Source: a virus (Duplodnaviria; Heunggongvirae; Uroviricota; Caudoviricetes). From it: a stretch of DNA of 64,000 nucleotides. The DNA is taken from IMG/VR virus record IMGVR_UViG_3300012983_000002, one strand, 5' to 3'. Both the position numbers and the translations under genes were made by a program. Below, piece by piece: positions 2,437 to 53,807 of this stretch (within the stretch, counting starts at the first letter, position 1; each line of letters opens with the position of its first letter). The notes beneath the pieces were generated by a model that did not search any database, was not told the DNA's origin, and saw only the letters and a list, made by a program, of their open reading frames with translations.

Positions 2437-3309
2437 TTATACGAACACACGTTCTTGAGTGAACGCTCTGTTGTTAATAGCATTAGACAACTGGCTAAGT
2501 TTACTGGCTCCTAGCTGACCAAAGAAGTTATTCTCGTCGTACGTCATCTCTCCTATACGTCTTCGATGAGTTTTACTCCAGTCGTACGCGTAGACCAGAT
2601 GTGTTTCAGTATCATCAAGCAGGTTAGCCTCGTAACCAACATACAATCTATCTATATTATTTTCTGTCATATAGCTATAAAGCATTGACCTTACTTTTGA
2701 TGCCAATACGCTACTACTGAGCTTATAACTAATCATCGATCTAAACTCGTCAGCAGTCTCCAGGATCATAGGTATGTTTACAGGGAGTGCTGATATTATA
2801 CCGTCTGTCGGTGTCCAGAATTTGTGACCTCCGTCAGCTTTTTTCCAGATCCTAGGTAGTGCGTGCCTTGGAGAGGTTGGCAATGCTTTGTGTGTTAGTT
2901 GACACCATTCATCTACCGTTAGATCTCTGTAGTGTATTGAGTTAGCTATACACGGAGATCCTCCACTGTAGTTAAACACATCTATACCTCCTCCACACCC
3001 TAAGTAAGCATCTGGCTCATCGTTAGGATGCGTTGCGTAGCCCATGCTAGTGTAAAGCATGTCGCGCCATCTTACTGCTGTATATAAATACATTTGCACA
3101 TCGTGTACTGCCCCATTTATATACGATAAGTCGTATATAGGAAACAGTTGGTTTGTACCCAGAATAAACTTATTAGGTCCTTCCGAAAGTACAACATCGC
3201 AGCAATAGTTGAGTTTTATCTCCTCCGTCGATGCTTGGGTCTGGTTATTATTACTTGATGTAGTGGTTACTATTCCAACATTACTGAGCAAATCACTTAA
3301 ATCGCTCAT
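2437..3309 (-). CDS. hypothetical protein
   Basis: 290 aa ORF filling the gap between two terminators. Confidence 0.75.
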   Translation of the reverse strand: MSDLSDLLSNVGIVTTTSSNNNQTQASTEEIKLNYCCDVVLSEGPNKFILGTNQLFPIYDLSYINGAVHDVQMYLYTAVRWRDMLYTSMGYATHPNDEPDAYLGCGGGIDVFNYSGGSPCIANSIHYRDLTVDEWCQLTHKALPTSPRHALPRIWKKADGGHKFWTPTDGIISALPVNIPMILETADEFRSMISYKLSSSVLASKVRSMLYSYMTENNIDRLYVGYEANLLDDTETHLVYAYDWSKTHRRRIGEMTYDENNFFGQLGASKLSQLSNAINNRAFTQERVFV

Positions 3310-11103: not shown

Positions 11104-11805
11104 TTATAAGTTGTATCTACTGATTATACGTCTAGCGTAATTTTGAAGAAATTCTGTAAATTGATCTGAAGATTTGTCTAATTTAAGAGTGTTACAATCT
11201 TTGCAACATAGACAAATGTTTTCTTTTGTATGCGTACCTCCAGAGCCCAGAGCTGTTTTGTGGTCCACGCTAAGATTATCTTTGGTGATTTGTACGCCAC
11301 AATAACAACACTCGCCGTTTTGAGTGTTAAATAATTCAACTAAATCATTTGGACCGCATATCCACGGTAGAGATTTTACCGGGACACTGGATGTAGGTAC
11401 TCCCAACTTGCGTGCTATTCTATTGCGTACTGTGTTATTTGCAGCATAAGCCCTGGCTCTCCACCATTCAGGTGACATTCCTTCTGCTCTCTTTTCTTTG
11501 CTTAAGTACGCTTTAGTAAGACATGCATCGCATATTTTATTTAACTCGTTGGTTACAGAATTTTTTCTAATAGAGTATGCTGAGTAGTATTTTAGTTTTT
11601 TACACTTAGAGCATCTCTTCATACCTTTTTCAGGATCGTCTTGTAGTAGAGCTTTTTTCTTCTCTCGAGATTTTCTCATCTCTTCTCGTTTAAATGCTCT
11701 ATGACATTCTTCGCAACGGTAAAATGGGCGCTTTGCGTTACGCTGGGGTTTTACCGGTTTTGTTTTGCAATCCTTACAAAGTTTTTCAGCACTATTCGTA
11801 TCCAT
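11104..11805 (-). CDS. intron-encoded HNH homing endonuclease
   Basis: CCYCG...VDHKTALGSGGTHTKENICLCCKDCN plus N-terminal CxxC pairs; lies after the S element (P9 region). Confidence 0.9.
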   Translation of the reverse strand: MDTNSAEKLCKDCKTKPVKPQRNAKRPFYRCEECHRAFKREEMRKSREKKKALLQDDPEKGMKRCSKCKKLKYYSAYSIRKNSVTNELNKICDACLTKAYLSKEKRAEGMSPEWWRARAYAANNTVRNRIARKLGVPTSSVPVKSLPWICGPNDLVELFNTQNGECCYCGVQITKDNLSVDHKTALGSGGTHTKENICLCCKDCNTLKLDKSSDQFTEFLQNYARRIISRYNL

Positions 11806-11960
11806 ACCTTCAGTAGTTCAGACTATATCATCATCAGTTATTATTTACTGAGCTGGGCGCTCGTGGAGGCATCATAACCTTCGCCGTTACGCGTTAAGGC
11901 GTTCCTCTAGTCGTTGCACCTTCTAAATATTTCTATTTAGCTTGGCTCAGGGTTACCTTT

Positions 11961-11989
11961 ATTATACCCTACAATATATTGAATGTAAA
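11961..11989 (-). promoter_or_regulatory. sigma70-type promoter inside intron 2
   Basis: TTTACA-N17-TATAAT, about 155 nt upstream of the HNH ATG. Confidence 0.6.
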
Positions 11990-12060
11990 TTATAGATTGT
12001 AGGGGATGTGTATGGTAGGCTTTCCCCGAATTCACCCAGTTTTACTTCCCCTAGCAGTTA

Positions 12061-12957
12061 AGGGAAATTTCGACACTCTCGTCCTAATGCTGTAAGCTGT
12101 CCTTCTCTAGTTCTAAAGGACAATCCCTTAATCCCGGCTGATAGTGTATGACAATGACGTAGACGTCCACTTGCAGCTCGTATGTAACCTTTCTCTGTAG
12201 GAACAGATTCCAGCTCCTTAAAGAATTGAGTTGCTCGCGGCTGTCTTCTTTCGATTGCGTCAAGCATTGCCTGTACATCATCTATTTCCGGTTTATTACC
12301 TGTATCAGCTTCGATCTTACGCTGAAGCGATGCGGCCTGACCTCCGTATGACGACGAGAAATTTACTACCTTGCCTGCTCCTCGATCCTTCTTCTTATCT
12401 AGTTCTTCGCGTACTTGCCCTCGGGCTAACTCCAAAACTCCCCAATGCATGTCGAATTTTGGAGATTTAATTTTACCGTTCTCGTCGCGAAGTAACTGAT
12501 CTTCAGTGAACCTGGCTTTAATAGCACCTCCAGATGTAAACGTCATTAGATACTTATCCCTATCCTCCGGATACTTAATGTACTCCGGGAATTTTATTCT
12601 TACGACGCAATCTTCGGCATCTACACCATCAGGTATACACTCAGGTTTCACAAGCGCAAAGCAATCGTCTGGTTCTTCGATTAGCTTAATAAGTTCTGCG
12701 TCACCAGAGATATACGCAAGACCTCGCATTTCTGCTGTCTGATAGTCCGCCTCCACAATACACCATCCAGGTTTAGCCATCATTACGGATCTGATGGTAG
12801 GGAAGGCTTTTGCCTTGGTGTCGGCAAATTTCTTAAACTTATCAGGTAACTGTCCAGCTTCGTTACGTTCCTTAATAATTCGTACCATGCCGGCTCCCAA
12901 ACGCGCATGTACCCAAGAGGGCCAATTCAGAACGTTCGGGTTCCAGCTCCTTATTCT
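12061..12957 (-). CDS. polA: family A DNA polymerase, exon 2
   Basis: RIRSWNPNVLNWP (GRLSSxxPNLQNIP), motif A EADYQTAEMR, motif B GKVVNFSSSYG, GRLRH. Confidence 0.93.
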
Positions 12958-14303
12958 CTTGATATTCAATGAGTTACGTTACTAACTCACCCGTTCTTTG
13001 ATGAACCGCTGCAGGTTATGTATTCCCTGCAGAGTAGACTATATCTTTACCCTCGACTTTACGTTAGGGTACCTCCCGTTTCGCCTGACTCCAGGCTACG
13101 TCCTTGCGGACTAGTCGTTGAACGTTCCTGCTCCGTAGAACAGGCTTCGCTGCTGATCAAGATCGGAAGTAATTCCGAACCGTCCCAGCAATTAAAGAGG
13201 TTTTCAGTGCCAGTTTCCTGGCATTGTGGCAGAATTTTGCATAGTAATTGTTTTGTTTGTTTAGCGTAATTTTTAAGTACGTTATACCTTATACGCAGTA
13301 AATTAATATTGTTGTCTCTTGCATATATATTCTTTTTAAAGTCGTAATTTTCGAGAAGTTCTGTATGCAAAGAATTATCGAGCTGACAGTGTTGCTCACC
13401 GTCGGCTTCCACTAGAAGATTATAAGATGGAAGATAGAAATCAAATCTAAGAGGAGCTTTGTTACCTATCAAACCTTCGAAGGTTTTTTGTGTTATAATT
13501 TCCGCCTCAGGGGCAATTTCTCGCAGCGTATTGTATATAAATAACTCAAAGGCGCTTGCTAAGTATGGTTGCCAATCAGTTATGTTTATACCAGCTATTT
13601 TAGCAGCATCTAAAACAGAAATTCCTCGCGCTGTTAAAACTTTTCTTGTTACTCCAAGATCTTTACACAAGAGCTCTAGTGAAGGAGGTAATGAGCCGTC
13701 CTTGAGACATTCTATTAATTTACCTTTAAGATATTCGTCTGAATATTTTATGCCTTTACCACTATTTTGTACGTATAAAGATTGACAGTGCCGAGAGCAT
13801 GTTTTGCATTTTGTATTTTTTCTTTTAGGAAGAAATTCTTTTCCGCATACGATACAGGTACTCTGAATACGTCCAGAAATAGATTTACAAGTGTCGCATA
13901 GTATCTGACTTCTATAAGTAGCCTTGAAGATTTTTCCGCACAATTGACATTTTTGATTTTCTAACAGCGAGTTAATTCGTCTCGCATGTCTGCAATTTGT
14001 GCATATTTTTTCTCCGTATAAAGATTTAAATTCATTTCCACAAATGGTGCATTTTATAGTAGGCGCTTTTGCTGCTACCCATTTATTTCTGCAACGTCTG
14101 CAATAAATCGTATCGGGAGACCCAAAAAATGTTGCACCGCAATGTTCGCATACACGTTCGCAAGAAGCGTTAGTATTTTTTCTACAATGCACGCACAAGT
14201 CTAAATCTTTTCGGCTTTTAAATACTTTGCCACATATTTTGCATATTTTTTCAGTCATACTTAAATGTTACTTTATTCAACAAAACAATACAATACCGAG
14301 TTT
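12958..14303 (-). mobile_element. group I intron 1 in DNA polymerase (1346 nt)
   Basis: Exon 1 ends ACTGGT; IGS AUUCU-GCCA pairs 3' exon AGAAU and 5' exon UGGU; TTAATTGCTGGGA, ATCAGCAGCGAAGC, CGTTCAACGACTAG, GATATAGTCTAC; terminal G at 12958; splicing restores TETG-RIRSWNPN. Confidence 0.93.
13059..14258 (-). CDS. intron-encoded homing endonuclease: five Zn-ribbon units plus Vsr-like/EDxHD (DUF559-type) nuclease
   Basis: Five CxxC...CxxC units; LRFDFYLPSYNLLVEADGEQH; C-terminus reads through the ribozyme core. Confidence 0.85.
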   Translation of the reverse strand: MTEKICKICGKVFKSRKDLDLCVHCRKNTNASCERVCEHCGATFFGSPDTIYCRRCRNKWVAAKAPTIKCTICGNEFKSLYGEKICTNCRHARRINSLLENQKCQLCGKIFKATYRSQILCDTCKSISGRIQSTCIVCGKEFLPKRKNTKCKTCSRHCQSLYVQNSGKGIKYSDEYLKGKLIECLKDGSLPPSLELLCKDLGVTRKVLTARGISVLDAAKIAGINITDWQPYLASAFELFIYNTLREIAPEAEIITQKTFEGLIGNKAPLRFDFYLPSYNLLVEADGEQHCQLDNSLHTELLENYDFKKNIYARDNNINLLRIRYNVLKNYAKQTKQLLCKILPQCQETGTENLFNCWDGSELLPILISSEACSTEQERSTTSPQGRSLESGETGGTLT

Positions 14304-47382: not shown

Positions 47383-47447
47383 ATTTACCTCCCCAAGATA
47401 TACCCAGGGAGGGGGTGCAGAAGTTATCTGCACGGATTACTTAAAGA

Positions 47448-47533
47448 CGGGTTGCTGAGGTGTCGATCCCCAATGGTGTCATCCATCCAACTGTTTTCAA
47501 GACAGTGTTCGTAGCCGTACGAATTAACAACCC
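47448..47533 (-). tRNA. tRNA-Ser(TGA), atypical D and T loops
   Basis: CTGT-CTTGAAA-ACAG, long variable arm, T-loop ATCGACA. Confidence 0.75.
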
Positions 47534-47551
47534 ATTTACTTTTTATATTAC

Positions 47552-47656: not shown

Positions 47657-47745
47657 AGCCGGCTCAGGGAGTCGAACCCTGCTTAAGGCTATTAACCCGT
47701 TTGCCATATTACAAGTATGGTGCCTAACCGATCGGCTTAGCCGGC
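47657..47745 (-). tRNA. tRNA-Thr(TGT) with an unusually long variable region
   Basis: CCATA-CTTGTAA-TATGG, 22-nt variable region, CAGGG-TTCGACT-CCCTG. Confidence 0.75.
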
Positions 47746-47751
47746 GTTAAC

Positions 47752-47823
47752 TCTGGCACACTCGAATCGAACGAGCCTCGTCCTCTGCCCAAAAGAGGTG
47801 CATACCCAGCCTGCCCGCGCCAG
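47752..47823 (-). tRNA. tRNA-Pro(TGG)
   Basis: CCTCT-TTTGGGC-AGAGG. Confidence 0.82.
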
Positions 47824-50178: not shown

Positions 50179-50267
50179 CACGCCAGGTAGGACTCGAACC
50201 TACAAAGACATTTCCAATTACCATAGTTTTACGTCTCGTGCTTAGAAGGCACGTTGGTTACTGGCGC
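50179..50267 (-). tRNA. non-canonical tRNA-Arg(TCT): no D-arm, 33-nt variable arm
   Basis: GCGCCAG/CTGGCGT acceptor, CGTGC-CTTCTAA-GCACG, GTAGG-TTCGAGT-CCTAC. Confidence 0.7.
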
Positions 50268-50340: not shown

Positions 50341-50853
50341 TTAAGCGTAGTACAGAATATTTTTTTCTTCCTCTGATAACTTAATGATTTTGGCTTTCTT
50401 ATCTTTGTGTGAAATTTTATTAGCTCCACGATAATGCTCAGTCTGACCGTGACAATTAGGACATAAAATTTGTAAATTATTCCAGGCATTATCATGATGA
50501 TTACCATTTACATGATGTAACTCTAACGGAATTTCTTTACCTCTCCATTCGGATAAACCGCAACATTCGCAGCGTTTTTCTTTTAGGCCAAATTTAAATA
50601 AATAGCCTTTAAGCTTATAGGCGGTAATGTAGTGTTTATTTTGAAACACTAGTTCTAGTTTTTCTTTAGTAACCGTTCTATGACTCTTCTTGCTAGTACC
50701 TCTACCTCCCTGATTGGGCAAAAAACAGTTATATTTTTTAGCAAGACGAGCATATGCATTGTACGATATGCCCATTACGCGCGCCGCTCCTGTGATAGTT
50801 TTTGTAGAATTATATGCGGCCTCTATCTCTTCTTTTGAAAAATTATAACTCAT
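50341..50853 (-). CDS. free-standing HNH homing endonuclease
   Basis: CECCG...LELHHVNGNHHDNAWNNLQILCPNCH plus N-terminal HTH; start moved to ATG 50853 (MSYNF). Confidence 0.88.
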   Translation of the reverse strand: MSYNFSKEEIEAAYNSTKTITGAARVMGISYNAYARLAKKYNCFLPNQGGRGTSKKSHRTVTKEKLELVFQNKHYITAYKLKGYLFKFGLKEKRCECCGLSEWRGKEIPLELHHVNGNHHDNAWNNLQILCPNCHGQTEHYRGANKISHKDKKAKIIKLSEEEKNILYYA

Positions 50854-50913
50854 AATCGATAGACACTTTATAATATAATATTTAGTGTTTGTCAATTATG
50901 AGTTATAATTTTT
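50838..50913 (-). promoter_or_regulatory. 19-bp inverted repeat covering the HNH start codon, with a TTGACA-N17-TATAAA promoter in its loop
   Basis: Arms 50838..50856 and 50895..50913; -35 at 50890..50895, -10 at 50867..50872. Confidence 0.75.
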
Positions 50914-50914
50914 A

Positions 50915-51254
50915 TAGCACGGACGGGACTCGAACCCGTACAGTCTAACGACCGGGAGATTTTCTTACTACTCTCAGTTTCCTGAGCCATTTATGTTGTA
51001 GTCTGGACTATATCATCATCCTAAAAGGATGTCACGTGCATAGTCTCTGAACCTTCCTCATTTTACAGAGGCTTGGCTGCGAATTACCCAATCTCCAGAT
51101 TTTTAAGAGCGTTCGCATTTATCGTTTCCGATTGTGCTTTAGCATCTGAAGCTCTAAGGGCTTCCTCGCAATTCGCGCGATTCATTCTATATGTTACCAT
51201 ATAGACGCTCAGTATTGGTAAGTCTCCTGTGTCTACCAATTCCACCACCGTGCC
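50915..51254 (-). tRNA. tRNA-Leu(TAA) interrupted by a group I intron
   Basis: Exons 51220..51254 and 50915..50963 join to give GGAGA-CTTAAAA-TCTCC. Confidence 0.92.
50964..51219 (-). ncRNA. ORF-less group I intron in the tRNA-Leu anticodon (256 nt)
   Basis: P1 CUU/GAG; GCGAATTGCGAGGAAG, AATTCGCAGCCAAGC, GGTTCAGAGACTA, GATATAGTCCAG; terminal G. Confidence 0.92.
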
Positions 51255-51893: not shown

Positions 51894-52241
51894 ATGCTTC
51901 TACAAAGCGAGATAGCCGAGGAATACAGTGTAACAGATACACAAGTACTTACACCAAACGGTTGGAGAAAAGTAAATAAGGTATATAAAACAATACCCCT
52001 GGAAACAGTGCGTATTGTTACTTCTAATTGTGAACTTATATGTTCGCTCCATCACCTTATTAAGACTCCTTACGGATGGGTACACGCCTATACGCTTTGT
52101 CAGGGAGATATTGTACTTACAGAGAACGGTTCTGAGGCGGTACTAATCGCTGAAGAAACAGGAGAAATGGAGGAGCTATACGATATAACGGTAGATGATC
52201 CTAGTGGTGAGTTTTACTCTAATGGTATACTGTCGCACAAC
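51894..52241 (+). mobile_element. split intein, IntC (116 aa)
   Basis: VLTPNGW, block B ICSLHH, block F LYDITV, block G SHN followed by Ser+1. Confidence 0.9.
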
Positions 52242-53807
52242 TCTACAACGTTTGCGGCACGTCAGTTAATTCTATCGCATCTTCTTCCAAACTATAAAAG
52301 TCTGTATGTATGCCCTCAGCACGATCAATTAAAGACTTACGCCAGGCGTCTTGCTGAAATGGAAGCAGCTTTTCGTTTCGATAATGGTAAGCAGAACCTG
52401 TACAACAAGGTATACGAAGACGGATCTGCTATCGACCTTAATTACTGCTTAACTACCGCTAATGCTGTTCGTGGTAAGTCTGTAATTGAGGTACTGCTAG
52501 ATGAGGCTCAGGGTATTAATCCTGATATTGTACCAGAACTTCTTTATGTGCAGACTACGGCGCAATATCCTTCCACTATCTTCGCCGGCACAGCCCTGTC
52601 CATCGATACTCTCCTGGAAGCTAAATGGCAGGCATCCTCTATGGGAATGTGGCACATACGAGCCATGGACGATGTTCACTGGTTAAACATGTATGATAAG
52701 GATACGCTATCGAAAGTGTGTGATAATCCTCAAGGTCCTACATGTCCTTATACTGGTAAATTACTAGATGTTACTCGTGGTTGCTATGTGCATGCTAATC
52801 AGAAGGCCATGGCTATTAACGAGATTGGTATTCACGTACCGCAATGCATTATCCCTGATCTGGCGTACAATCCTATCCAGTGGGGTAAGATATATAAAAA
52901 AATACAAGACGACGATTTTAATAAAGTGTTACAAGAATGTTTCGGAATTGCAGTTGCTGAGGGTAGTCGAGAAATCACTGAACAAGACCTTCAGCGCTTA
53001 TGTGTCTTAACAGATAATCACGAAGAGATTAAGCAGAAATGCAGGAACGGCTATTATCGCCTTATTGTTTCTGGGTGCGACTGGGGTGGCTCCGACTACA
53101 ACCAGGCTATTCAGACTAAGACGTCATATACCGTGCATTGCATTATCGGTGTAGCTCCTGATGATGTTATAGATATTCTTTACTACAAGCGTTATAGCGG
53201 TATGGATTACCGAGATATTGCCGAGGAGATTGCTAATACACATAAAGCCTATAATGGGCACGTAGTAGCTTCGGACTTCGGTGTAGGTCTCGCATACAAT
53301 ACTGAACTGCGAAATCGTATTCCTTATGACCGTCACTTCATTATGAATTACGTAGGACAGGCAGCAGCTCCCCTGGCTACTCCTAAAGGACAGCACATGA
53401 TTAATCAGCTTGCTCTTAATCGTACGGAAGCTCTTACTAATGTGTTTAAGGATGTTAAGGATCCTCATCTAAAAATAAGAGCTGGTAGTTGGGGTTACAC
53501 TTCCTCCTATCTTCTGGATTGGCTCAACATGTATCGTGTGCCTGTTGATATGCCTAGCGGTCAGACTGCATTCAAATATATTCGAAGCGCTACTAAGGCA
53601 GATGATGCTCTGCACGCATTTACCTTTGCCTATGTGCTTGCTAAGTTCTTCCTAGGAGTACCCCTGGTCAATGACTTAGCTTTGGAGCAGAGGTTGAGAT
53701 CTGTGCTATATGGTCCAGGATCTGCTGGGGTTATAGCTCCCAGAAGCTCTCCTGAACTTGATCGATTACTCAGAGGAGGAGATCCTAATTACGTAATTTC
53801 TCTTTAA
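51894..53807 (+). CDS. terL: split intein C-part (116 aa) plus terminase large subunit C-extein (521 aa)
   Basis: LYDITV...FYSNGILSHN/STT; then SLYVCP, VLLDEAQ (Walker B), FAGTA, nuclease SGCDWGG, SDFGVG, DDALHA. Confidence 0.92.
   Translation: MLLQSEIAEEYSVTDTQVLTPNGWRKVNKVYKTIPLETVRIVTSNCELICSLHHLIKTPYGWVHAYTLCQGDIVLTENGSEAVLIAEETGEMEELYDITVDDPSGEFYSNGILSHNSTTFAARQLILSHLLPNYKSLYVCPQHDQLKTYARRLAEMEAAFRFDNGKQNLYNKVYEDGSAIDLNYCLTTANAVRGKSVIEVLLDEAQGINPDIVPELLYVQTTAQYPSTIFAGTALSIDTLLEAKWQASSMGMWHIRAMDDVHWLNMYDKDTLSKVCDNPQGPTCPYTGKLLDVTRGCYVHANQKAMAINEIGIHVPQCIIPDLAYNPIQWGKIYKKIQDDDFNKVLQECFGIAVAEGSREITEQDLQRLCVLTDNHEEIKQKCRNGYYRLIVSGCDWGGSDYNQAIQTKTSYTVHCIIGVAPDDVIDILYYKRYSGMDYRDIAEEIANTHKAYNGHVVASDFGVGLAYNTELRNRIPYDRHFIMNYVGQAAAPLATPKGQHMINQLALNRTEALTNVFKDVKDPHLKIRAGSWGYTSSYLLDWLNMYRVPVDMPSGQTAFKYIRSATKADDALHAFTFAYVLAKFFLGVPLVNDLALEQRLRSVLYGPGSAGVIAPRSSPELDRLLRGGDPNYVISL

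What the first reader, a model, noticed from the sequence alone, without database searches (positions are those of the whole stretch)
50179..50267. D-armless tRNA-Arg(UCU) whose variable arm carries a D-loop-like GGUAA
Seen: perfect acceptor, anticodon and T arms, but only TAACCAA where the D arm should be. A 33-nt variable arm AGACGT-AAAACTATGGTAATTGGAA-ATGTCT contains GGTAA, and its TTGG is complementary to the CCAA linker. Known: D-loop GG contacts the T loop to form the elbow, and D-armless tRNAs are mainly mitochondrial. Inference: a topologically swapped tRNA in which the variable arm rebuilds the elbow; standard scanners may miss it.
Basis: partly seen in the sequence, partly recalled or inferred. 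Interest (0 to 1): 0.72.

Follow-up and report, generated by a model that had tools for sequence, protein, structure and literature searches.

The report
Rewired, pseudoknotted phage arginine tRNA
This gut-phage gene is very probably a working arginine tRNA (for the AGA codon) that is not a cloverleaf: it rebuilds its missing D arm from two distant strands, and it belongs to a large, mostly unannotated phage family that ARAGORN almost always misses.

Summary
Window 50179-50267 (minus strand) is an 89-nt tRNA-shaped gene with intact acceptor, UCU anticodon and T arms. Only 7 nt sit where the D arm should be, and a 31-nt hairpin fills the variable region.

It is not an orphan. My scans found over 140 distinct relatives in viral, metagenome and genome collections. 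When the scan did not specify the anticodon, 101 of 105 hits carried arginine anticodons. Cultured phages have it too, including Felix O1, where it is unannotated.

Covariation defines two helices:
- **Helix X:** linker nt 10-13 pair with nt 45-48. This helix encloses the anticodon arm and stands in for the D stem.
- **Helix Y:** nt 32-37 pair with nt 57-62, forming a class-II-like variable stem.

X and Y cross, so the fold is a pseudoknot. X is followed by a conserved 8-nt motif that matches the D-loop consensus, with counterparts of G18, G19 and A20.

UGG is the helix strand, and UUGGA is the D-loop-like element.

Function as an ArgRS-charged AGA decoder is inferred, not shown. This scan had already found the same family on other DNA. 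I found no published description.

The parts
50179..50267 (-). Whole 89-nt rewired tRNA-Arg(UCU) gene. RNA position p equals 50268 minus the window coordinate.
   Evidence: Rfam tRNA 35.4 bits; own model R1 91.3 bits; 100% identical in L003 and L389, 94% identical in L006.
50261..50267 (-). Acceptor stem, 5' strand (p1-7).
   Evidence: Pairs with 50180-50186. The acceptor helix is 98-99% paired across the family, and 6-7 of its 7 pairs change on both sides. L311 and L371 have a wholly different but still complementary stem.
50259..50260 (-). U8 and A9.
   Evidence: Invariant in 77 and 33 family sequences, although no search pattern specified them.
50255..50258 (-). Helix X, 5' strand (p10-13, ACCA). 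It stands in for one strand of the D stem.
   Evidence: Covaries with p45-47. The alignment was not fitted to X.
50237..50253 (-). Anticodon arm (p15-31), with anticodon UCU at 50244-50246.
   Evidence: 5-bp stem and 7-nt loop with U33, A37 and A38. One compensatory C-G to U-A change in L006.
50231..50236 (-). Helix Y, 5' strand (p32-37). A class-II-like variable stem that starts directly after the anticodon stem.
   Evidence: Pairs with 50206-50211. All 5 modelled pairs change on both sides across 38 sequences, and 91.6% of cells are paired.
50224..50230 (-). A-rich connector (p38-44) between Y 5' and X 3'.
   Evidence: An A-rich stretch recurs here throughout the long subclass. Its role is inferred.
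50220..50223 (-). Helix X, 3' strand (p45-48, UGGU).
   Evidence: Same covariation as for 50255-50258.
50213..50220 (-). D-loop-like motif UAAUUGGA (p48-55). Proposed counterparts: A14, A15, Y16, Y17, G18, G19, A20.
   Evidence: A nearly invariant motif in members found without specifying it. Matches the D-loop consensus. A after GG is the position of the main bacterial ArgRS determinant, A20 (PMC9976931). The mapping itself is inferred.
50206..50211 (-). Helix Y, 3' strand (p57-62).
50204..50205 (-). UU connector (p63-64). The last U is the proposed counterpart of position 48.
   Evidence: U directly before the T stem is invariant in both alignments and was not specified by any pattern.
50187..50203 (-). 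T arm (p65-81).
   Evidence: 5-bp stem and canonical loop. One compensatory U-A to C-G change in L006.
50179..50186 (-). Acceptor stem 3' strand (p82-88) and discriminator G (p89). No CCA is encoded.
   Evidence: Most of this phage's other tRNA genes also lack an encoded CCA.

Best explanation
The gene encodes a working arginine tRNA (anticodon UCU, codon AGA) whose core is wired differently from the cloverleaf.

Shown:
- It has standard acceptor, anticodon and T arms.
- Linker nt 10-13 pair with nt 45-48 (helix X), so this helix encloses the anticodon arm.
- Nt 32-37 pair with nt 57-62 (helix Y).
- X and Y cross, so the fold is a pseudoknot.
- A conserved UAAYUGGA motif follows X.
- The design is shared by over 140 distinct sequences that carry almost only arginine anticodons.

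Inferred:
- The RNA is made as part of the phage tRNA array, cut out by host RNase P and 3' nucleases, and given CCA by the host.
- Helix X stacks on the anticodon stem as the D stem does.
- The motif takes the roles of A14, R15, G18, G19 and A20, so U8-A14 and the GG-to-T-loop elbow contacts form an L shape.
- Helix Y acts like a class II variable stem.
- Host ArgRS charges it through the A20-like A55, C35, U36 and G73.
- It reads AGA, one of the phage's two most used arginine codons.
For: Structure:
- Rfam tRNA hit at 35.4 bits with only the D arm missing.
- Helix X is 100% paired, with GC/UA/AU/CG and GC/CG/AU variants, in an alignment not fitted to X. It is 87% paired against 22-40% in shifted registers, and 0 of 1000 shuffles reach that value.
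- Helix Y: 14 different complementary strand pairs, always starting right after the anticodon stem. All 5 modelled pairs change on both sides.
- U8, A9 and the U before the T stem are invariant although no pattern specified them.

Identity:
- A scan that did not specify the anticodon gave UCU 56, ACG 33, UCG 8 and CCU 4 among 105 tRNA-shaped hits; 73 of the 105 encode CCA.
- The bacterial arginine identity set (A20, C35, U/G36, A/G73; PMC9976931) is matched by A55, C35, U36 and G89.

Context:
- The gene lies 13 nt from tRNA-Trp in a same-strand array. All close homologues sit 4-10 nt from neighbouring tRNAs.
- It is the only UCU tRNA in the 196.5-kb genome. AGA makes up 30% of arginine codons, 14.1 per 1000.
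- Relatives L003 and L006 carry it in the slot where L004 has a canonical tRNA-Arg(UCU).
- The 94%-identical copy differs by two compensatory stem changes plus one linker change.

Other phages:
- Felix O1 carries an unannotated member with an encoded CCA. Its genome paper notes that a tRNA for the over-used AGA codon was expected but not found (PMC3185647).
Against:
- L006 keeps a canonical tRNA-Arg(UCU) beside the rewired one, so the rewired gene is not always the sole AGA reader.
- The host presumably has its own tRNA-Arg(UCU), so being the phage's only copy does not prove need.
- Helix X is short: 3 Watson-Crick pairs plus a possible A-U. Alone it adds only about 0.4 kcal/mol by nearest-neighbour rules.
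- Whether X and Y can coexist sterically is untested.
- Several conserved positions (anticodon loop, motif, T loop) were fixed by my own search patterns.
Confidence: 0.7

Rival explanations
1. The RNA is a conserved, structured tRNA look-alike that is not used for decoding. It could be a decoy or sponge for host tRNA-targeting nucleases, or for ArgRS, or another regulatory RNA.
For: The core is unusual. L006 keeps a canonical tRNA-Arg(UCU) beside it. Nuclease genes lie next to it in this window and in close relatives. No function has been measured.
Against: Four different arginine anticodons are kept with proper U33/R37 loops, and 73 of 105 members encode CCA. Discriminators are those accepted for arginine, and the A20-like base is retained. 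The gene takes the slot of the canonical gene in relatives. A decoy would not need all of these at once.
Confidence: 0.13
2. The gene is a working tRNA, but the rewiring exists mainly because it makes the gene, or the RNA, immune to a nuclease. That nuclease could be a neighbouring homing endonuclease that cuts canonical tRNA-Arg genes, or a host anticodon nuclease. This concerns why the design exists and does not exclude the main explanation.
For: An HNH gene ends 73 nt upstream in the window. A PF18741 nuclease-like gene lies directly downstream of the Arg(UCU) gene in L003, L006 and L004, and is an insertion relative to the window. An HNH gene is adjacent in Klebsiella phage Roth37. The family is spread patchily over unrelated phages.
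Against: In a sample of 139 flanking ORFs, homing-nuclease families were only slightly more frequent than among 109 distant ORFs from the same loci. L004 has the same nuclease-like gene beside a canonical tRNA. No cleavage site is known.
Confidence: 0.15
3. One reading: GGUAA in the variable loop is the D-loop mimic, and UUGG pairs with the CCAA linker.
For: The complementarity exists in this one sequence.
Against: Across the family this pairing equals the shuffled expectation and shows essentially no compensatory change: none in one alignment and no more than the shuffles in the other. YUGGA stays constant while the linker varies. The UGG upstream of the motif covaries with the linker instead.
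Confidence: 0.03
4. The gene is a decaying pseudo-tRNA that lost its D arm and gained an insertion.
For: ARAGORN rejects it, and this genome copy encodes no CCA.
Against: Covariation is seen in five helices across more than 140 distinct sequences. The flanks diverge while the gene is conserved. The canonical Arg(UCU) genes of relatives are unrelated in sequence, so it is not a recent wreck of them. Lack of an encoded CCA is normal in this genome.
Confidence: 0.03
5. Because of its long variable stem the RNA is charged by SerRS, LeuRS or TyrRS, and so inserts another amino acid at AGA.
For: Helix Y resembles a class II variable arm. Allo-tRNAs with mismatched anticodons are known (PMC5389517).
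Against: Most family members lack helix Y yet carry the same arginine anticodons and the same A20-like motif. AGA is used at 30% of arginine codons in ordinary phage ORFs. The acceptor and T stems are 7/5, not 8/4 or 9/3.
Confidence: 0.03

Closest known systems
Canonical bacterial and phage tRNA-Arg(UCU) (Rfam RF00005), for example the genes at L004:9151-9223 and L006:1890-1963 in close relatives, and E. coli argU (from my own knowledge)
   Same: 7-bp acceptor stem, anticodon arm with the same loop, T arm, A/G discriminator, a GG-A element, a place in a tRNA array, and the same slot in the genome.
   Different: There is no D hairpin. One D-stem strand precedes the anticodon arm, while the other strand and the D-loop-like motif follow it. 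An extra helix Y crosses helix X to give a pseudoknot. There is no sequence similarity to the relatives' canonical genes.
Class II tRNAs (bacterial Leu, Ser, Tyr) with long variable arms
   Same: A stem starts right after the anticodon stem and ends 2-3 nt before the T stem (helix Y).
   Different: The loop is 19 nt and holds the D-stem strand and the D-loop motif. There is no separate D arm, and the anticodon is for arginine.
Mitochondrial D-armless tRNAs, such as metazoan mt tRNA-Ser(AGY) (from my own knowledge; review PMC7609411)
   Same: No D hairpin between the acceptor and anticodon stems.
   Different: Those tRNAs lose the D-loop/T-loop elbow elements and work with organellar machinery. 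This one keeps U8, GG and a canonical T loop, and must work with bacterial enzymes and ribosomes.
Allo-tRNAs and 8/4 or 9/3 tRNAs (Mukai et al., PMC5389517)
   Same: Non-standard tRNAs found in bacteria, phages and metagenomes, often with long variable arms.
   Different: Those remain cloverleaves with shifted acceptor and T stem lengths. Here the stems are 7/5 and the topology itself differs.
Permuted and split tRNA genes of algae and archaea (from my own knowledge)
   Same: The parts of a tRNA appear in an unusual order in the gene.
   Different: Those genes are processed into a normal cloverleaf. Here acceptor strands at both ends of one gene enclose the rearranged core, so the mature RNA itself would be rearranged.

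Membership tests
Canonical cloverleaf tRNA (Rfam RF00005) | 7-bp acceptor stem with a discriminator base | tested here: met
   covariation.
Canonical cloverleaf tRNA (Rfam RF00005) | D hairpin (positions 10-25) between the acceptor and anticodon stems | tested here: not met
   Only 7 nt lie there, and the Rfam alignment deletes 15 model positions.
Canonical cloverleaf tRNA (Rfam RF00005) | Anticodon arm (5 bp, 7-nt loop, U33, purine 37) and T arm (5 bp, canonical loop) | tested here: met
Canonical cloverleaf tRNA (Rfam RF00005) | Score above the curated Rfam cut-off | tested here: met
   35.4 bits against 29 in sensitive mode. Not listed with default filters.
Canonical cloverleaf tRNA (Rfam RF00005) | Aminoacylation and use on the ribosome | not testable with these tools
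   No expression or charging data are available.
Rewired-D-domain phage tRNA-Arg family (defined operationally here; no published name found) | U8-A9, then a 3-4-nt strand that pairs with the strand directly 5' of a UAAYUGGA motif placed after the anticodon arm | tested here: met
   Nt 10-13 pair with nt 45-48, and the motif lies at nt 48-55.
Rewired-D-domain phage tRNA-Arg family (defined operationally here; no published name found) | Arginine anticodon | tested here: met
   UCU here. The family shows UCU, ACG, UCG or CCU in 101 of 105 hits from the scan that did not specify the anticodon.
Rewired-D-domain phage tRNA-Arg family, long (pseudoknotted) subclass | Helix Y between the start of the post-anticodon spacer and the end of the pre-T spacer, crossing helix X | tested here: met
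   6 bp here. 38 distinct members show covariation.
Mitochondrial-type D-armless tRNA | Loss of the D-loop/T-loop elbow elements, in an organellar setting | tested here: not met
   The GG-A motif and canonical T loop are conserved. The genome is a 196.5-kb virus record with a terminase gene.
Class II tRNA (Leu/Ser/Tyr) | Long variable arm together with a normal D arm and a Leu, Ser or Tyr anticodon | tested here: not met
   A variable-type stem is present, but there is no D arm and the anticodon is UCU.
Allo-tRNA / 8/4 and 9/3 tRNAs (PMC5389517) | Acceptor stem of 8-9 bp with a T stem of 4-3 bp | tested here: not met
   7/5 here.

The most novel reading that the evidence does not exclude
This is a natural elongator tRNA that is not a cloverleaf. 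It would be a pseudoknotted RNA in which the D-stem strands are swapped around the anticodon arm, yet it is processed, charged by bacterial ArgRS and used by bacterial ribosomes. It is widespread in phages of many bacterial phyla, including Felix O1. If so, bacterial translation tolerates a different tRNA topology, and phage tRNA inventories are systematically undercounted.
Probability: 0.55. Interest if true: 0.9.

Novelty: new variant of a known kind. Interest (0 to 1): 0.8.

Why it matters
All bacterial and phage tRNAs are usually assumed to be cloverleaves, and gene finders build that assumption in. A conserved arginine tRNA design in which the D stem forms around the anticodon arm, here with a crossing second helix, would show that RNase P, ArgRS, EF-Tu and the ribosome accept another connectivity, provided the L shape and identity bases are kept.

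It also has practical effects. Phage tRNA sets are undercounted, and with them arguments about codon-usage compensation. Felix O1 was reported to lack the expected AGA tRNA (PMC3185647), yet it carries a member of this family.

The design gives a new scaffold for tRNA engineering. It also raises the question of whether the rewiring helps phages escape nucleases that target tRNAs or tRNA genes. Cultured members in Salmonella, E. coli, Klebsiella, Listeria, Streptomyces and Vibrio phages make the idea directly testable.

Tried and rejected
- **Exact-sequence scans of IMG/VR** for pieces of this gene found nothing. The window's own record appears to be withheld.
- **blastn of the gene against GenBank phages** gave only T-arm matches.
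- **More distant TerL relatives** (73% identity or less) have no tRNA array beside the terminase gene, so synteny could not reach far.
- **ARAGORN's tRNA-Leu(CAA) call on the L006 copy** is a forced fold with a mismatched stem, and I discarded it.
- **Recent derivation from the relatives' canonical Arg(UCU) gene:** no sequence similarity.
- **A phage-encoded ArgRS:** none found.
- **A second rewired tRNA in this genome:** none found.
- **Enrichment of homing nucleases next to family members:** 139 flanking ORFs against 109 distant ORFs showed only a slight, uncounted excess. I treat this as inconclusive.
- **Sigma-70 promoter and terminator scan** around the gene gave no more sites than shuffles.
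- **The MAFFT alignment misplaced helix Y** (72% paired). I corrected this with a covariance model fitted to Y only.
- **Literature searches** for a description of such tRNAs found none. The 2020 review of non-canonical tRNAs does not mention them.

Full report
**What is there**

On the minus strand of window 50179-50267 lies an 89-nt sequence with these parts:
- a 7-bp acceptor stem (one G-U pair) and discriminator G;
- a 7-nt linker;
- a perfect anticodon arm with loop C-U-UCU-A-A;
- a 6-bp stem closing a 19-nt loop, then UU;
- a perfect T arm.

The minimum-free-energy fold is this structure (z = -2.3). ARAGORN does not call it. Rfam lists it only in sensitive mode, at 35.4 bits against a cut-off of 29, with the D arm deleted and a 31-nt insertion.

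**Setting**

The window belongs to a 196.5-kb virus record with 42.8% G+C. A large terminase gene lies at 51894-53807. The gene sits in a same-strand tRNA array:
- tRNA-Trp lies 13 nt downstream.
- An HNH gene (50341-50895) lies 73 nt upstream.
- Beyond that is a tRNA-Leu(UAA) gene split by a group I intron.

The genome has 20 ARAGORN tRNAs and no other UCU tRNA. It has no ArgRS gene. AGA is 30% of arginine codons in long ORFs, 14.1 per 1000. Most of the phage's tRNA genes encode no CCA, so its absence here is unremarkable.

**Close relatives**

I fetched contigs that encode 87-97% identical terminases.
- L003 holds an identical copy and L006 a 94% copy. The five differences in L006 are two compensatory stem changes (C-G to U-A in the anticodon stem, U-A to C-G in the T stem) and one linker change, while the flanks diverge.
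- L004 and L005 (93% terminase identity) lack the gene. They have a canonical tRNA-Arg(UCU) in the corresponding slot, upstream of a PF18741 nuclease-like gene. L006 has both genes.
- The canonical genes share no similarity with the odd one.

**A large family**

Earlier notes from this scan reported 'rewired' phage arginine tRNAs on other DNA. I treated them as leads and tested the idea independently.
- A viral-contig scan required only the UCU loop and a T loop 22-45 nt apart. It gave 43 hits, 42 of them distinct sequences, with full acceptor, anticodon and T stems and no D hairpin.
- Nearly all of these share a UAAYUGGA motif after the anticodon arm.
- A second scan used that motif and the T loop but did not specify the anticodon. 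It gave 105 distinct tRNA-shaped hits, with UCU 56, ACG 33, UCG 8 and CCU 4. The other four are canonical class II tRNAs or misparses. 73 of the 105 encode CCA.
- The same pattern in bacterial genome contigs mostly hits ordinary tRNA-Ser variable arms. About 15 hits are rewired arginine genes, including a close homologue of ours on a 238-kb contig binned as Lachnospiraceae.
- Further scans raised the long subclass to 38 distinct sequences.
- ARAGORN gave any overlapping call for only 7 of 143 family members, and 2 of those were correct.

**Structure from covariation**

*Helix X.* In members with a 7-nt linker, linker positions 11, 12 and 13 pair with the three bases just 5' of the motif.
- The pairs are 88/88, 87/88 and 55/88 paired. 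Overall this is 87%, against 22-40% in shifted registers, and 0 of 1000 shuffles reach it.
- The counting tool gives CG 34, GC 21, UA 15 and AU 6 for the middle pair in 77 sequences.
- The first pair is fixed as C-G by my pattern, but it appears as U-A and G-C in the scan that did not specify the motif.
- In ours the helix is A10-C11-C12-A13 with U45-G46-G47-U48.

*Helix Y.* Ours belongs to a subclass with longer spacers, and these spacers pair with each other.
- I saw 14 different complementary strand pairs. Each starts directly after the anticodon stem and ends 2-3 nt before the T stem.
- I built a covariance model that contains Y but not X. On its alignment of 38 sequences, Y is 91.6% paired and all 5 modelled pairs change on both sides.
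- On that same alignment X, to which it was not fitted, is 100% paired (GC 17, UA 9, AU 6, CG 6; and GC 16, CG 13, AU 9).

Because 11 < 32 < 47 < 62, X and Y cross, and the fold is a pseudoknot.

**How it probably works (inference)**

Read along the RNA, the strand after the anticodon arm, together with the motif, matches the canonical order: D-stem 5' strand, then A14, R15, Y16, Y17, G18, G19, A20. The strand before the anticodon arm takes the place of the canonical 3' strand, which normally runs on into the anticodon stem.
- Helix X could therefore stack on the anticodon stem as a D stem does.
- The GG could reach the T loop.
- U8 is invariant and could pair with the A14 counterpart.
- The invariant U before the T stem could act as position 48.
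- Helix Y occupies the place of a class II variable stem.

The A after GG sits at the position of the main bacterial arginine determinant, A20. C35, U36 and G73 complete the known identity set (PMC9976931). This would explain why the design is confined to arginine anticodons. None of this has been tested by experiment or by 3D modelling.

**Cultured phages and literature**

- A typical family member matches 191 GenBank phage records, and another matches 32. Their hosts include E. coli, Salmonella, Klebsiella, Listeria, Streptomyces and Vibrio, and most matches have no annotation.
- Felix O1 has an unannotated copy with an encoded CCA at about 25951-26032 of AF320576.1. Its genome paper found 22 tRNAs with tRNAscan-SE and remarks that a tRNA for the over-used AGA codon would have been expected (PMC3185647).
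- Klebsiella phage Roth37 annotates its copy as tRNA-OTHER, with an HNH gene next to it.
- I found no paper describing this architecture. The library I could search is incomplete.

**Alternatives**

- A pseudogene is very unlikely, given covariation in five helices.
- A non-decoding decoy cannot be excluded without experiments. It fits poorly with the retained anticodon loops, CCA ends, identity bases and slot replacement.
- A link to mobile nucleases is suggestive at this locus. It was not clearly enriched in a sample of the family.

**Verdict**

This gene is one member, of the pseudoknotted long subclass, of a widespread and apparently undescribed class of phage arginine tRNAs. This scan has already met the class on other DNA.

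Noticed in passing
window 50915-51248 (-): A tRNA-Leu(UAA) gene is interrupted in its anticodon loop by a group I intron. The Rfam intron hit is at 50983-51229 (80.8 bits), and I read the exon halves by eye. ARAGORN does not call the gene. A free-standing HNH gene (50341-50895) follows it. Close relatives L003 and L006 have an uninterrupted tRNA-Leu(UAA).
   Followed up: partly
window 47657-47745 (-): tRNA-Thr(UGU) is 89 nt long, with a normal-looking D arm but a variable region of about 22 nt, which is unusual for threonine. Rfam scores it 44.7 bits in sensitive mode only. Same-length tRNA-Thr(UGU) calls appear at the matching array position in L004 and L389.
   Followed up: partly
window 47446-47534 and 47752-47823 (-): ARAGORN's tRNA-Ser(UGA) and tRNA-Pro(UGG) get no Rfam tRNA match at E <= 0.01, even in sensitive mode. 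They may also be atypical.
   Followed up: no
window 11802-12096 and 13017-13285 (-): Two more group I introns (69.5 and 68.7 bits). Their host genes were not examined.
   Followed up: no
L003:91-933, L006:2079-2921, L004:8164-9066: A 280-300-aa gene with HTH and PF18741 (MTES_1575, nuclease-like) hits lies directly downstream of the Arg(UCU) gene. That gene is the rewired one in L003 and L006 and the canonical one in L004. Relative to the window, it is an insertion of about 0.9 kb between the rewired tRNA and tRNA-Trp.
   Followed up: partly
L406:1495-1576 (AF320576.1 about 25951-26032): Salmonella phage Felix O1 carries an unannotated rewired tRNA-Arg(UCU) with an encoded CCA, overlapping the start of 'ORF100'. 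The published tRNA table also lists an 88-nt 'Pseudo (Tyr)' gene at 24258-24345, which may be another non-canonical tRNA.
   Followed up: partly
L063, L089, L021, L067, L105, L062 and others: A second UCU subfamily has a 9-10-nt C-rich linker, a GGGAWGGA-type motif, a 4-bp T stem by my parse, and its own covarying long-range helix plus a crossing helix. It is probably a related but distinct rewired design.
   Followed up: partly
proteins P0016, P0021, P0032 and many others: Many terminase relatives are 770-1080 aa and carry intein/Hint domains (PF14890, PF07591, PF01079). The window's own terminase (637 aa) has none.
   Followed up: no
L004:9373-9442; L311:2248-2318 and 3219-3292: ARAGORN reports tRNAs with abnormal two-base 'anticodons' (tRNA-???) in the arrays of related phages. 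Not examined.
   Followed up: no
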